From: Eimeria praecox
Lineage: Eukaryota
NCBI GenBank assembly: GCA_963920595.1
Contig: OY986948.1
Span: forward strand, 2,108,001-2,172,000
DNA: 64,000 nucleotides
Reading direction: 5' to 3'
Position 1 is the first letter of the stretch, and the number at the start of each line of letters is the position of its first letter. The position numbers and the translations under genes were made by a program. The notes beneath the pieces were generated by a model. The model ran no database searches. It was not told the DNA's origin and saw only the letters and a program-made list of their open reading frames with translations. This document shows, in pieces, positions 54,279-63,811 of the stretch.

Positions 54279-54472
54279 GTTGCTAATTTCCTGGCTGCTG
54301 CTGCTGCTGTGCTGCTGTTTGCTGCTGCGGCTGCTGCCGTTTGTTTGCTGGCAGGGTGAAGGATAGCAACGGGTGAATGCTGCAACACTGCAGCAGCTGC
54401 TGCTGCCTCTACTCCAGCTGCTGTTGTTGCTGTTGCTTCCGCTGCAGCGAGCGATCCTGCTGCTGCTGTATC

Positions 54473-56668: not shown

Positions 56669-57001
56669 ATGCGTTTCTTGAATGGCTGCCAGCAACAGCA
56701 GCAGATGCTGCTACTGCTGCTGCTATTAAATGCTGCAACCGCAGCATATGCACTCCACAGCAAGCCGTCACAGCAGCAGTTGTACCTGGGGGTTGAACAG
56801 TTGACTCCTCCGCAGAACAGCGAGCCCAGCAGCACGGCTGGCGTGCCACTCTCTCTCGCGTTGCTGCAGCAGCAGCAAGTAACAACAGGGTTAGACGATG
56901 CCCTTCTAAATATGACTGACGAGAAAGAGAAACCTTCTTTCTTCCAACACAGTGAGTGAGCAAGGAAACGCTACCTAGCAGCACATAGTATATGTTAAGT
57001 G

Positions 57002-57045
<44 letters not shown>

Positions 57046-57242
57046 ATTTATCTGTTATTACAATGCTCTTCTTGTTTTTTTGTATAGGTGGATGGGTATT
57101 GCCTCAAGAATCAAAGCAAACAAGGGGGATGTTTAACTGGTATACAAACCCTTACACCTATGTCATTATTGGGGGGCTGGTGGGAGCCCTCGTCGGGTTA
57201 GGCATCTGGTGTATAGTTGCGTCGTATACCTTCAAAGCGTGA
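56669..57242 (+). CDS. Small (145 aa) protein with putative signal peptide and C-terminal transmembrane helix; exons 56669-56951, 57088-57242
   Basis: [28 protein letters not shown]... with phase-1 intron CAC A|gtgagt..atag|GT. The second exon reads SGWVLPQESKQTRGMFNWYTNPYTYVIIGGLVGALVGLGIWCIVASYTFKA*. Confidence 0.75.
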
Positions 57243-57649
57243 AGCAGCAGCAATAAGCTGCTGCATGCATGCAAACAGCAGCAGGTGTTTCTGTGTTCCT
57301 CTGTTTCGAGATGACAGCCACCAGAACACCGGAGTGCTGTTTACTACGACTCAATAGAGATTTAGCTCACCTGTAACAAATGATAAAGAAGACCCTAACA
57401 GCAGCAGCAGCAGCTCCAGCTGCTGCTGCTGCTGGAGATGCAAACCAGCAGCAGCTCCAGCTGCTGCTGGGGATGCAAAGCAGCAGCTGTCTCGCCCTTG
57501 ACACCACGCCTGCTGCCACAGTTGGCGGTGGGGAGAAGCTGGTTTACGAGCTGCTTTCTTGTTTGCTGTTAATTACACTTTGTAAAAATTGACGTTTTGT
57601 TTTTTCTGAGGATATAACTCCCTCCCCTCCCTTCTAAGCGGTAAAACCA

Positions 57650-57677: not shown

Positions 57678-58333
57678 GCTAATTTTTCAGGGGTTTCTTT
57701 GCAAACTGTTTTATTTTTTTAATTTAAAGATTAATATTTTGCTGCCTCGTCCCTTCTGACTATCGCCTGCTGGCTGCTTGCTCCCTCCTCTGATTTCCAC
57801 TCCCCAACTGCTGATGCTCCCCCCGCCTCCTTCATTGCGTGAAGGGTATGTAGCCTCTCCAGCTATGGTGATGGGGGAAGACAGATGCATCAAAGTGGTA
57901 TGATCAGCCGTGCGAGTCATCGCAGCAGGAAGAATACAACCGCTGCACTGAAAGCCAGTCTACCTAGCACGGACTCAACCTATAAGCGAAATGTCCAATA
58001 ACTATGTATTGCAAGGCTGTGCTGCTCTCTGGTGCCTCTCTACATGTAGCCTTTTGCTAGGTAAAGCGGAAGCGGGAAGCCTAACCCTAAACCCTAAGAA
58101 GTAGGCAACTACAGGTTGGCATATTCATATCTATCATTACAACAGCATTGCTGGTGAAACGTTAGTTTCAGTATTGTGCCAGAGATTAATATGAAACAAT
58201 AAGTTGAATCAAAACATATGAGTAAGGATGCATCCGGGTAGTCTTTTATGATAGGGAAGACGCCGGCATCCTGGAACAAGTGTAATAAGGCTATTTCGGT
58301 AAAAAATAAAACGACATAACGAGTTTAACTCAC

Positions 58334-61300
58334 TTACTGGGAAAAGGGAGAACCAAACATGTACAAACTAGACGGCATCGAATACAGCTAAACGAGAACC
58401 TGAACTCCGAAACTAACATATTTGAATGTACTACTAGATATTATTATTAGCTATTGCAGCTCACCGGCTGGAGAAAGAAGTATAATAAATAACAAAAAGG
58501 CCCGAATATACAATATACAAGGAAAGCTTAGACACCGAGAGGTGAAGCATGAGGATTATATCAACGTTCTGCTGCCAAGGGATTGCTGCTCACGGCCTGG
58601 CTCAGAAAGAGAAACGCCACGGGTGCAGCGGGTATGAATGAGGTAGGTAGTTCTTTTAAAAAATATGCTCCACACTATTTAAAGTACCACAAACAAATAT
58701 TTACCATCGTTTCCTCTGGCCGCTTAACGTAGAACATTCAACTCACAGCCTGCATGCAAATGGGGGATTGGTTTCTTCGCCTGCCACAAGGTAAGACCAA
58801 CTCAGACGCTCTATGAATATATACTTGAGCATCCCGCAAAAACGTGTATGCAACGACTCAGAAGTGCTCTCCTTTCCTTAAAATATTCAACAACCTTACT
58901 GTCTGCATGCCTTCCACCGCTCAATCTCCGTCGAATACAAAACAAAACAACATATCCTGTGACGATGCCTGTGCTATCGTGCAGCGATTTAGCAACAAAG
59001 AGGTTCTAAGATTAAGATCCAAAATGTCTACAAACGCACCGTCTAAAGGCCCAACAAAAAACGCCAAAGGGATAGTTTTAGTGATACACGAGTACAAGCG
59101 GATCCGTCTCACAGGAAGAGGAAGCTGATAATGTCATTTTTCCTCTCCAGTGGGTAACAATCTTACTGTCTGCAACTCCGCCACCGATCAATACCCCCTC
59201 CCTTTAAATACAAACTTGCACTATCTGCCTTCCTGTGGCCGTGTCGTGCTTGTGCCGTGGTGTAGCGAAGGGGCTGCAGTGCGCGAACAAGTATACCCAT
59301 GAAACCAGGTAAAACATTCATAAACTCACCGTCTGGAAGACAACAAAACCCGCGGAAAAATTCTTTATATTGAAATACCAATGCATGTGAACTTGCCCCT
59401 AAATTAAACTAAAAACTTCCTTCTCGTTTCCCTAGACTGGGGAAAAACCTTACTGTCTGCAAGTCATTCACCGCCCAATCCCCATCCAATACAACAATAC
59501 AATGCATTGCGCGTCTTTTTGTTAATCTGTCTGTTCGAGAATGCAGTAATCCAGCAACAAACATACCCTTCAAATCAGATCAACAATACTAGTTAATGCG
59601 CCGATACGAGAAACTCGCTGAAGTGCTAGTTTAAGCCATATACCACTGCATGTGAATCTTTGTTGAAGGAGAAGTAAGCCACTGGCACATGTCATATCTA
59701 TCTCGCATGGTAAAAAAAGCTTACTGGCTGCAAGCCATTCATCGTTCAAACCCCATTCAAGCCAATACAATACAGTGCATGCCTTCCTCTGAATCTGGCT
59801 GCTCAACGGTGCAGCAATGCATCTAATAAATCCTTCGAATCAAATCATAGTTAACTCGCCGATACAATAAACTCACGGAAATGGTAGTTTCAGTGGATTT
59901 TACCCCACTGCATGCAAAACTGTTTCGAAGGACAAAGAAGCCACTGGCACATGCCATCTCTCTCTCTCTCTCTCGCATGGGCAAAAAACCTTACTGACTG
60001 GAAGTCATTCATCGCTCAAACACCACCAAACCAAAATACAATGCAGTGCATGCATTCCTATGAATATGCCTGTTCAAGCATGCAGCAGTGCAGGAAGAAG
60101 TATATCCTTCAAATCAGATCAAAGGCATCTGTAAACTCACAAATCCAAGAAGCCCGTCATCAACGAGCGAGTTTAACCCATACACCAATGCATGTGAATC
60201 CTTGTCGAAGGATAGATAAGGAAACCACTGGCAGATATATCATCTCCCACACTTGCGGGAAGGCTCACTTTCTGCAAGTAAGACACCGCACAAACCCCAT
60301 CCAAGCCAAGAATACAATGCAATGCATGCATCCGTATGAATCTGCTAGTTCAACAATGCAGCAATGCATATAATAAATCCTTCGAATCAAATCAAAAATA
60401 TTAGATAAACTCGCCGATACAATAAACCCAGCGAAATGGTAGTTCAGTGGATTTTACACCACTGCATGGGAATCTGTGTCGAAGGACAAGGAAGACACTG
60501 ACACATGCCATCTCTCTCGCATGGGCAAAAACGCTTACTGGCTGCAAGTCAGTCATCGCTCATGCTCCATCCAAGCCAAAATACAATGCAGTGCATGCCC
60601 TTCAAAGAATATGCCTGTTCAAGCATGCAGCAGTGCAGGAAGAAGTATATCCTTCAAATCAGATCAAAGACATTTGTAAACTCACCAATCCAAGAAGCCC
60701 GTCGAAAAGCGAGTTTAACCCATACACCAATGTATGTGAATCTGCGTCGAAGGATAGATAAGGAAACCACTGGCAGATATATCATCTCCTACACTTGCGG
60801 GAAGGCTCACTCTCTGCAAGTAAGAAAGCGCACAAACCCCATCCAATACAAAAATACAATGCAATGCATGCGGAGGTATGAATCTGCCAGTTCAACAATG
60901 CAGCAGTGCATCTAATAAATCCTTCGAATCAGATCAAAGATAAACTCGCCGATACAATAAACAAACCAAAATGCTAGTTTTAGCGGATTTTATACCACTG
61001 CATGTGAAACTTTGTCGAAGGAGAATGTAGCCACTGGCACAGGCCATGTCTATCCCGCATGGGCAAAAAAAAAGCTTACTGCCTGGAAGTCATTCATCGC
61101 GTAAACACCATCCAAGCCAAAATACAATGCAGTGCATCCCTTCCTAAGAATCTGGCTGTTCAAGGGTGCAGCAATGCATCTAATAAAACCTTCAAATCAG
61201 ATCAAAAATATTAGATAAACTCGGCGATACAATAAACCCACCGAAATGGTAGTTTCAGTGGATTCTACAACCACTGCATGTTAATCTGTGTCGAAGGACA

Positions 61301-63811
61301 AAGAAGCCACTACCACATGCCATATTTATCTCTTATGGCGAAAAGAGCTTACTCCCTGCAAGCCATTCATCGCACAAACCCCATCCAAGCCAAAATACAA
61401 TGCAATGCATGCCCTTCTGTGAACCTGCCCGTTCAACCATGCAGTAATGCATCAAGAAATAAATCCATCGTATCAGATCAAAAATATTAGTTAACTCGCC
61501 GATACAATAAACCCACCGAAATGTCCGTTCGGGCGACGTTCGCAACCACTACGTGTGAATCTGTATCGAAGGACTAGGAAGACACTACCACATGTTATAT
61601 CTCTCTCGCATGCGCAAAAGGACCTTACTGTCTGCAAGCCATTGACCGCTCAAACCCCACCCAATACAAAAATACAATGCAATGCATGCTTCCAAAGAAT
61701 CTGGCTGTTCAAGCATGCAGCAATGCATCTAATAAATCTTTCAAATCAGATCAAAAATACTAGTTAACTCGCCCATACAAAAAAACATACCAAAATCCTA
61801 GTTTCAGTGGATTCTACAACCACTGCATGTTAATCTGTGTTGACGGACAAAGAAGCCACTGGCACTTGTCATATTTATCTCGCATGGGCAAAAGGAGCTT
61901 ACGTCCTGCAAGCCATTCATCGCACAAACCCCATCCAAGCCAAAATACAATGCAGTGCATGCATTCCTATAAATATGCCTGTCAAGCACGCAGCAGTGCA
62001 GGAAGAAGTATATCCTTCAAATCAGATCGAAGACATCTGTAAACTCACCAATCCAAGAAGCCCGTCATCAAAGAGCGAGTTTAACCCATACACCAATGCA
62101 TGTGAATCTGTGTAGAAGGATAGATAAGGAAACCACTGGCAGATATCATCTCCCACACTTGCGGGAAGGCTCACTTTCTGCAAGTAAGACACCGCACAAA
62201 CCCCATCCAAGCCAAGAATACAATGCAATGCATGCATCCGTATGAATCTGCTAGTTCAACAATGCAGCAATGCATATAATAAATCCTTCGAATCAAATCA
62301 AAAATATTAGATAAACTCGCCGATACAATAAACCCAGCGAAATGGTAGTTCAGTGGATTTTACACCACTGCATGGGAATCTGTGTCGAAGGACAAGGAAG
62401 ACACTGACACATGCCATCTCTCTCGCATGGGCAAAAACGCTTACTGGCTGCAAGTCAGTCATCGCTCATGCTCCATCCAAGCCAAAATACAATGCAGTGC
62501 ATGCCCTTCAAAGAATATGCCTGTTCAAGCATGCAGCAGTGCAGGAAGAAGTATATCCTTCAAATCAGATCAAAGACATTTGTAAACTCACCAATCCAAG
62601 AAGCCCGTCGAAAAGCGAGTTTAACCCATACACCAATGTATGTGAATCTGCGTCGAAGGATAGATAAGGAAACCACTGGCAGATATATCATCTCCTACAC
62701 TTGCGGGAAGGCTCACTCTCTGCAAGTAAGAAAGCGCACAAACCCCATCCAATACAAAAATACAATGCAATGCATGCGGAGGTATGAATCTGCCAGTTCA
62801 ACAATGCAGCAGTGCATCTAATAAATCCTTCGAATCAGATCAAAGATAAACTCGCCGATACAATAAACAAACCAAAATGCTAGTTTTAGCGGATTTTATA
62901 CCACTGCATGTGAAACTTTGTCGAAGGAGAATGTAGCCACTGGCACAGGCCATGTCTATCCCGCATGGGCAAAAAAAAAGCTTACTGCCTGGAAGTCATT
63001 CATCGCGTAAACACCATCCAAGCCAAAATACAATGCAGTGCATCCCTTCCTAAGAATCTGGCTGTTCAAGGGTGCAGCAATGCATCTAATAAAACCTTCA
63101 AATCAGATCAAAAATATTAGATAAACTCGGCGATACAATAAACCCACCGAAATGGTAGTTTCAGTGGATTCTACAACCACTGCATGTTAATCTGTGTCGA
63201 AGGACAAAGAAGCCACTACCACATGCCATATTTATCTCTTATGGCGAAAAGAGCTTACTCCCTGCAAGCCATTCATCGCACAAACCCCATCCAAGCCAAA
63301 ATACAATGCAATGCATGCCCTTCTGTGAACCTGCCCGTTCAACCATGCAGTAATGCATCAAGAAATAAATCCATCGTATCAGATCAAAAATATTAGTTAA
63401 CTCGCCGATACAATAAACCCACCGAAATGTCCGTTCGGGCGACGTTCGCAACCACTACGTGTGAATCTGTATCGAAGGACTAGGAAGACACTACCACATG
63501 TTATATCTCTCTCGCATGCGCAAAAGGACCTTACTGTCTGCAAGCCATTGACCGCTCAAACCCCACCCAATACAAAAATACAATGCAATGCATGCTTCCA
63601 AAGAATCTGGCTGTTCAAGCATGCAGCAATGCATCTAATAAATCTTTCAAATCAGATCAAAAATACTAGTTAACTCGCCCATACAAAAAAACATACCAAA
63701 ATCCTAGTTTCAGTGGATTCTACAACCACTGCATGTTAATCTGTGTTGACGGACAAAGAAGCCACTGGCACTTGTCATATTTATCTCGCATGGGCAAAAG
63801 GAGCTTACGTC
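58334..63811 (-). CDS. 3' part of a putative gene built from 3-nt (single-codon) micro-exons; encodes ...(DTGARPK)2-SPTTTTTAAP*; 5' part lies beyond the window
   Basis: 25 sites of YAG|NNN|GT. In transcript order (plus-strand start of each triplet): 63809 GAC, 63535 ACA, 63259 GGA, 62986 GCA, 62717 AGA, 62445 CCA, 62175 AAA, 61903 GAC, 61629 ACA, 61353 GGA, 61080 GCA, 60811 AGA, 60539 CCA, 60269 AAA, 59995 TCA, 59725 CCA, 59454 ACA, 59330 ACG, 59167 ACA, 59040 ACG, 58900 ACA, 58747 GCT, 58594 GCC, 58465 CCG, 58334 TAA. Confidence 0.7.

What the first reader, a model, noticed from the sequence alone, without database searches (positions are those of the whole stretch)
58334..63811. A 'satellite' that looks like a one-codon-per-exon gene: 25 tandem 3-nt micro-exons ending in a stop-codon exon
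Seen: on the minus strand every ~272 bp monomer contains an acceptor (TTGCAG or TTCCAG), exactly 3 nt, then a donor (GTAAG or GTGAG). The AG and GT are invariant, donor variation stays within the GTRAG consensus, and the 3 nt between them are hypervariable. The same geometry continues at 124-163 bp spacing into flank where intron homology fades or is absent (TGCATGCAG|GCT|GTGAGT at 58747, GCCAG|GCC|GTGAGC at 58594, CTCCAG|CCG|GTGAGC at 58465, CCCAG|TAA|GTGAGT at 58334), so it is not just a by-product of repeat amplification. Joined, the triplets give D-T-G-A-R-P-K-D-T-G-A-R-P-K-S-P-T-T-T-T-T-A-A-P-stop. Phase 0 is supported by synonymous third-position alternation (ACA/ACG, GCT/GCC, CCA/CCG) and by the last triplet being TAA, although the other two phases are also open. 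Inference: all exons are symmetric, so any skipping pattern stays in frame and could vary a Thr/Pro-rich, mucin-like peptide one residue at a time. This would be an extreme analogue of schistosome micro-exon genes. Standard gene finders and read aligners would miss it. I do not know of a described coccidian gene of this form but cannot search the literature.
Basis: partly seen in the sequence, partly recalled or inferred. Interest (0 to 1): 0.97.

Follow-up and report, generated by a model that had tools for sequence, protein, structure and literature searches.

The report
Hidden one-codon-per-exon gene in Eimeria
What looks like satellite DNA in this Eimeria parasite is a row of 25 intact splice-site pairs, each around exactly three bases, and likely forms the end of an overlooked gene that adds one amino acid per exon; such arrays are reported from a truffle fungus, but no transcript could be examined here.

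Summary
Observation confirmed. There are 25 acceptor/3-nt/donor sites on the minus strand (24 strict GTRAG). Four lie between introns unrelated to the repeat, where 0 of 20,000 shuffles reach even three sites. Among 10 distinct monomers (61-87% alike) the seven core splice columns never change, while exon bases 1-2 change about three times faster than intron bases. New here: the 272-bp monomer is an old two-intron unit whose second micro-exon lost its acceptor, and that orphan donor has decayed. The doubled seven-codon block is one recent 1.9-kb duplication. The neighbouring gene's only hit is an E. praecox protein. Best reading: the 3' coding end of a spliced gene of single-codon exons, likely ending in a stop-codon exon. 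Not shown: any transcript (no RNA holder listed), the 5' end, secretion, exon skipping, conservation in other Eimeria. The kind is known: codon-sized mini-exons of Tuber melanosporum nank genes. This scan noted similar arrays on other DNA, and a pattern scan here gave 49 more among 117 metagenome loci. My searches found no apicomplexan report. Verdict: new variant of a known kind.

The parts
61906..63811 (-). Higher-order repeat, copy 1: seven ~272-bp monomers, each starting with a 3-nt candidate exon (exon first bases 63811, 63537, 63261, 62988, 62719, 62447, 62177). The array runs on past the window end.
59998..61905 (-). Higher-order repeat, copy 2: seven monomers (exon first bases 61905, 61631, 61355, 61082, 60813, 60541, 60271); identical to copy 1 over 1,665 bp, 18 differences in the last ~240 bp
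59457..59997 (-). Two further ~270-bp monomers with 3-nt candidate exons at 59997 and 59727
58900..59456 (-). Ancestral-type region: five Thr-codon candidate exons (59456, 59332, 59169, 59042, 58902) with 121-160-nt introns; two copies of a two-exon unit from which the 272-bp monomer derives
58465..58749 (-). Three 3-nt candidate exons (58749, 58596, 58467) between mutually unrelated introns of 126-150 nt
58334..58336 (-). Last 3-nt candidate exon, TAA: a stop codon in phase 0, behind a strong pyrimidine tract
58271..58333 (-). Predicted last intron, 63 nt, GT...AG with pyrimidine tract
57700..58270 (-). Predicted terminal exon (3' UTR in phase 0; 8 or 20 further codons in the other phases); its 3' limit is a guess
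   Evidence: inferred
60135..60146 (-). Example of the dead second micro-exon inside each monomer: acceptor deleted, donor still GTGAG here but decayed in 7 of 9 distinct monomers

Best explanation
The region holds 25 conserved acceptor/three-base/donor sites and is likely the 3' coding end of a spliced Eimeria gene in which each exon supplies one codon, likely read in phase 0 and closed by a stop-codon exon. Shown by sequence: the sites, their conservation, and the history of the array. An old stretch of single-codon exons with unrelated 120-160-nt introns gave rise to a two-exon unit; one exon lost its acceptor, fusing two introns into one of ~270 nt; this exon-plus-intron monomer was amplified and diverged to 61-87% identity; and a seven-monomer block was recently duplicated. 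Inferred: the spliceosome removes the introns and joins the triplets; selection keeps the splice signals and favours amino-acid change in the exons; the product ends in a low-complexity Thr/Pro/Ala/charged tail whose length changes by unequal crossing-over. Speculative: exon skipping, secretion, O-glycosylation, antigenic role.
For: Seven core splice columns show 0 changes on a tree of 10 distinct monomers, where only 33% of 241 other intron columns are unchanged. Exon bases 1, 2, 3 show 4, 4, 1 changes against an intron mean of 1.2, and only 1 of 242 adjacent intron column pairs reaches 8. Four sites persist in non-homologous introns. The orphan donor of the dead internal exon keeps GT in 2 of 9 monomers, the live donor in 10 of 10. 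Contigs of three runs laid over one exon list other letters at exon bases 1 and 2 (6-7 contigs each), none at AG or GT, and no indel in the exon (the list is not exhaustive). The only in-register stop is the last of 18 non-redundant triplets and is followed by a well-formed intron. The class is real elsewhere: Tuber nank mini-exons; 49 of 117 metagenome loci against 2 of 80 prokaryote and 0 of 7 viral loci hold long variable-triplet arrays; 54 such arrays have 12, 35 and 139 stops in the three frames over 1,183 triplets. Locus L032 joins a signal-peptide-like exon in phase 0 to at least 30 such exons rich in Pro/Thr/Ala/Lys/Asp.
Against: No transcript was seen. The start of the gene is outside the window and no genome is held. 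All three phases are open. Acceptors in the 272-bp monomers have G-rich, pyrimidine-poor upstream sequence; a branch-like motif was found in 6 of 16 introns, nearly all only 10-14 nt from the acceptor. One monomer type not present in the window has a non-consensus donor (+4 change), and the 59042 site is GTGCG. Monomers are related, so conserved columns are not independent events, and half the array is a near-identical copy. None of 17 metagenome arrays with more than 400 nt of downstream DNA ends in a stop triplet, so a stop-codon exon is not the usual ending. The TAA site also contains an overlapping GTAAG donor. Polymorphisms avoid the splice cores (0 of 20 listed, 1.6 expected), which is not significant.
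Confidence: 0.62

Rival explanations
1. The unique 3' sites are or were real micro-exons, but the amplified 272-bp part is now a satellite inside an intron or a dead gene, and its triplets are mostly skipped or never transcribed.
For: No RNA evidence for inclusion; weak pyrimidine tracts and no clear branch points in the monomers; a near-perfect 1.9-kb duplication and raised depth behave like satellite turnover; one internal exon has already died; one outside monomer has a non-consensus donor.
Against: Splice columns stay fixed across monomers only 61-87% alike while the orphan donor decays; exon bases 1-2 are the second most changed adjacent pair of about 240; plain satellites that carry the motif by chance mostly show uniform triplets.
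Confidence: 0.18
2. It is a spliced single-codon-exon gene read in phase 1 or 2, giving a Gln/Glu/Asp/Lys-rich or Arg/Lys/Asn/Asp-rich tail that ends 8 or 20 codons into the exon at 58270; TAA is then not a stop.
For: Both frames are open. Exon base 3 is A in 9 of 10 monomers and base 1 is the most variable, which fits base 1 as the wobble position in phase 1. Some metagenome arrays also look open in shifted frames.
Against: Base 1 changes about three times faster than intron bases, more than a neutral wobble site should; base 3 changes at about the intron rate. A stop triplet in last place would be a roughly 1-in-20 coincidence. In the metagenome arrays frame 0 has the fewest stops, and L032 enters in phase 0.
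Confidence: 0.12
3. The triplets are spliced but non-coding (UTR or long non-coding RNA), or serve as stepping stones for piecewise intron removal, akin to recursive splicing.
For: No start codon, signal peptide or long exon is visible in the window; the downstream exon has no long frame.
Against: A spacer of exactly 3 nt in unrelated introns and fast change of bases 1-2 point to codons; recursive sites are zero-length AG/GT (recalled), and none of that form lies in the region. No Rfam match in the array.
Confidence: 0.06
4. Chance motif in a satellite, or an assembly artefact.
For: Satellites and protein repeats that carry the motif by chance exist, also in prokaryotes.
Against: Four sites lie outside the repeat; contigs of three runs from two studies cover the unique part and the monomers.
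Confidence: 0.02

Closest known systems
Codon-sized mini-exons of the Tuber melanosporum nank (NACHT-ANK) gene family (Iotti et al. 2012, seen only as cited in PMC4986451 and PMC13449251)
   Same: Tens of exons of one codon each in a row, frame-neutral if skipped.
   Different: Here an apicomplexan, with no NACHT or ankyrin domain visible; the array is at the 3' end and likely ends in a stop-codon exon; introns are 120-270 nt with a satellite-like higher-order repeat; alternative splicing is reported for nank and untested here.
Schistosome micro-exon genes (MEGs) (PMC4015677, passages)
   Same: Parasite gene with many symmetric tiny exons and possible in-frame skipping.
   Different: MEG exons are mostly larger than one codon (6-36 nt, recalled); MEGs mostly have signal peptides and shown splice variants, neither testable here; no homology is implied.
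SmPoMuc polymorphic mucins of Schistosoma mansoni (PMC4015677, passage)
   Same: Tandemly repeated exon-plus-intron units that change the length of a repeat region.
   Different: The SmPoMuc repeat exon is 27 nt and near the 5' end; here each exon is 3 nt, varies between units, and lies at the 3' end.
Single 3-nt cassette exons such as in RPS24 (bioRxiv 10.1101/2024.12.24.630263, passage) and cytohesin-1 (search listing, PMC6314551)
   Same: They show that spliceosomes can include a 3-nt exon.
   Different: Isolated cassettes between normal exons, not a run of 25 or more.

Membership tests
Codon-sized mini-exon arrays (Tuber nank type) | Tens of tandem 3-nt exons with canonical splice sites | tested here: met
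   25 sites, 18 non-redundant
Codon-sized mini-exon arrays (Tuber nank type) | Triplets variable while splice signals are conserved; frame open | tested here: met
Codon-sized mini-exon arrays (Tuber nank type) | Transcripts show inclusion and alternative splicing of the triplets | not testable with these tools
   No RNA holder listed; the runs laid cover the introns without junctions and look genomic
nank gene family itself | Linked NACHT and ankyrin domains | tested here: inconclusive
   No long frame downstream of the array; upstream lies outside the window
Schistosome-type micro-exon gene (MEG) | Symmetric micro-exons | tested here: met
   All 25 are 3 nt
Schistosome-type micro-exon gene (MEG) | Micro-exons make up most of the coding sequence | not testable with these tools
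   5' part outside the window; no genome held
Schistosome-type micro-exon gene (MEG) | N-terminal signal peptide, secreted product | not testable with these tools
   5' exon not in the window; seen only in the unrelated analogue L032
Schistosome-type micro-exon gene (MEG) | Splice variants by exon skipping | not testable with these tools
   no RNA
Plain satellite DNA | Monomer positions vary without regard to splice signals; motif confined to the repeat | tested here: not met
Recursive splicing sites | Zero-length AG/GT junctions (feature recalled) | tested here: not met
   0 hits at spacer 0 in the region

The most novel reading that the evidence does not exclude
An Eimeria secreted or surface mucin-like antigen whose tail is written one residue per exon and is diversified three ways at once: by positively selected codon changes, by gain and loss of whole exon blocks as a satellite, and by in-frame skipping of single residues. 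It would be the first such gene in Apicomplexa and invisible to gene finders and read aligners.
Probability: 0.25. Interest if true: 0.85.

Novelty: new variant of a known kind. Interest (0 to 1): 0.62.

Why it matters
If spliced, it shows that an apicomplexan parasite of poultry can encode protein one codon per exon and that sequence masked as satellite can hide coding genes. It would give a directly testable case of how a spliceosome defines dozens of consecutive 3-nt exons, and a candidate variable antigen that annotation pipelines would likely miss. The simple pattern used here also shows that such arrays are common in eukaryotic metagenome DNA, so the class is probably much wider than the one fungal family my searches found in print.

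Tried and rejected
No whole genome is held, so the array could not be followed upstream. A monomer-specific pattern found 0 matches in metagenome contigs. blastn of the array against the 124 loci then held gave no hit, and the rest of the window holds no monomer copy. The L032 array shows no DNA homology to this one (score 32 against a shuffled maximum of 31). Rfam: nothing within the array; 11 weak sub-threshold hits, all on a CAG run near 57400. Pfam on 13 open frames beside 9 metagenome arrays gave one KH domain and one transposase, no NACHT or HET domain, so their host genes stay unidentified. Literature: 'Eimeria' with 'micro-exon' or 'microexon' gave 0 papers; 'microexon' with 'Toxoplasma' gave 8, none on an apicomplexan array by title or abstract start; searches gave nothing further. 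Iotti 2012 and DeMarco 2010 are not held; most subscription papers are not searched and no supplements were read. Earlier-findings look-ups by sequence, by genome and for coccidian arrays were empty. An inverted-repeat search was not completed. Rejected: tandem introner-like insertion with 3-nt target duplications (the triplets would be identical; they are not); recursive splicing (no zero-length sites); synonymous alternation as proof of phase (one unit copied).
Full report
Setting. The window has the CAG runs, AAACCCT repeats and TGCATGCA motifs typical of Eimeria (the association is recalled). The gene on the plus strand just left of the feature (start 56669) has one hit among 5 candidates, Eimeria praecox EPH_0018920 (E 4e-60), whose end matches the window's next exon. 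No genome is held.

Observation. On the minus strand 25 sites of the form YAG, three bases, GT run from 63811 to 58334. 24 have GTRAG donors; the one at 59042 has GTGCG. Spacers of 0-12 nt other than 3 give one hit in total in the region. In the whole window 24 of 25 strict matches lie here (shuffle mean 9.6); the other is the neighbour gene's intron donor.

Anatomy. Seventeen sites lie at 269-276-bp spacing. Fourteen of them belong to two copies of a seven-monomer unit of 1,906 bp, identical over 1,665 bp, so there are 10 distinct monomers, 61-87% alike. Next come Thr-codon sites with 121-160-nt introns, then four sites whose introns are unrelated to each other and to the repeat (z at most 1.8). 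Those four sites in 691 nt compare with a shuffle mean of 0.044; none of 20,000 shuffles reached three. The last triplet is TAA, followed by a 63-nt GT-AG intron and an acceptor at 58270 with no long frame behind it in any phase. In any phase, then, the triplets would encode the end of a protein.

History. The alignment shows that the middle of each monomer matches the micro-exon at 59332, with six bases including its acceptor deleted. The monomer is therefore a former two-exon unit that lost one exon. The orphan donor keeps GT in 2 of 9 monomers; the live donor keeps it in all 10. These losses share ancestry, so this is a modest internal control, about four changes in five columns against one.

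Selection. On a tree built from intron columns, the seven core splice columns show no change, whereas 33% of 241 other intron columns are unchanged. Exon bases 1, 2 and 3 need 4, 4 and 1 changes against a mean of 1.2, and 1 of 242 adjacent intron pairs equals bases 1+2. So base 3 looks neutral and bases 1-2 look accelerated, which fits amino-acid diversification in phase 0. It fits phase 1 less well, where base 1 would be a wobble site changing at about the intron rate. Contigs from three genomic-looking runs laid on one exon (33, 24 and 23 contigs) list other letters at exon bases 1 and 2 in 6-7 contigs, one donor +4 change in a monomer type absent from the window, none at AG or GT, and no exon indel. 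The table omits differences known from the window itself, so it is not exhaustive. The same call shows diverged monomers on contigs of about 0.9-1.1 kb. A contig with one difference from the block monomer has 2.5 to 4.4 times the depth of single-copy contigs, a rough hint of three or four block copies, perhaps varying between samples; the tool warns that depth is not copy number. Listed polymorphisms avoid the splice cores (0 of 20, 1.6 expected; 16 rows were not shown), which is not significant.

Against. No RNA holder was listed, so splicing is not shown. Monomer acceptors lack a good pyrimidine tract, and branch-like motifs occur in 6 of 16 introns, nearly all close to the AG; I had no validated Eimeria introns to calibrate this. 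All three phases are open. The TAA site overlaps a second GTAAG.

Comparison set. Arrays of at least 8 units with at least 6 different triplets and a period of at least 55 nt occur in 49 of 117, 0 of 7 and 2 of 80 loci; the two prokaryote cases are 129-nt repeats with little first-base variation (flanks differed: 6,000, 2,000 and 1,500 nt, and about 40 metagenome loci had short flanks). With a looser donor set, 54 of 81 arrays of 8 or more units were classed as variable; they carry 12, 35 and 139 stops in frames 0, 1 and 2 over 1,183 triplets, and 0 of the 17 with over 400 nt downstream end in a stop. Most have ~70-nt periods and none is homologous to this array. One, L032, has a signal-peptide-like exon ending in phase 0 followed by at least 30 triplet exons rich in Pro, Thr, Ala, Lys and Asp with an internal repeat.

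What is known. [quoted passage not shown] Schistosome MEGs and SmPoMucs use larger symmetric micro-exons with signal peptides and shown skipping (PMC4015677, passages). Single 3-nt exons are included in RPS24 (bioRxiv 10.1101/2024.12.24.630263, passage). Searches pairing Eimeria with micro-exon terms returned no paper, and the Toxoplasma pairing returned none on this topic by title or abstract start. Earlier notes of this scan describe like arrays in other genomes; they gave the lead to the Tuber paper and are not counted as evidence.

Verdict. The feature is real. It works, most likely, like a codon-sized exon array; membership of that kind is met on sequence features and untested on transcripts. 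It is not shown to be a nank gene or a schistosome MEG. It differs from the described case in lineage, 3'-terminal position, probable stop-codon exon and satellite-like amplification. Confidence: 0.62 for the phase-0 gene, 0.74 for a spliced coding array in any phase. Novelty: new variant of a known kind. Interest 0.62.

Noticed in passing
L032:4452-7536: Metagenome contig with a signal-peptide-like exon ending in phase 0, followed by at least 30 three-base candidate exons encoding a Pro/Thr/Ala/Lys/Asp-rich repeat; runs off the contig end; no homology to the window array.
   Followed up: partly
L001-L117 (e.g. L002, L026, L046, L017, L039): Dozens of ~70-nt-period arrays of variable 3-nt exons, up to about 76 units, mostly open in frame 0; host genes not identified by Pfam on 13 nearby frames.
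   Followed up: partly
L013, L104, L114 (array ends): The last triplet found is a stop codon, but only 9-108 nt of contig follow, so it may not be terminal.
   Followed up: no
window 58334-63811 and L032: Exon last base and donor type tend to covary: A mostly with GTA (13 of 18 here, 7 of 9 in L032), other bases mostly with GTG (5 of 7 here, 15 of 18 in L032); copies are related, so not independent.
   Followed up: partly
window 56669-57242 (+): Two-exon neighbour gene matching E. praecox EPH_0018920, which carries a 25-residue duplication absent here. Another frame of the second exon would give a hydrophobic, membrane-anchor-like C-terminus.
   Followed up: partly
window 57769-57893 and 59311-59447: Two haplotypes at roughly 30:70 or 45:55 depth in the runs laid, 6-9 differences each, suggesting mixed parasite populations.
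   Followed up: no
window 57365-57375 (-): A pyrimidine tract followed directly by CAG and GTGAG, a zero-length acceptor/donor-like site, about 900 nt past the predicted terminal exon start.
   Followed up: no
window 50755-54366 (+): A 1,203-codon open frame rich in Gln/Ala runs, probably a large coding exon; not examined.
   Followed up: no
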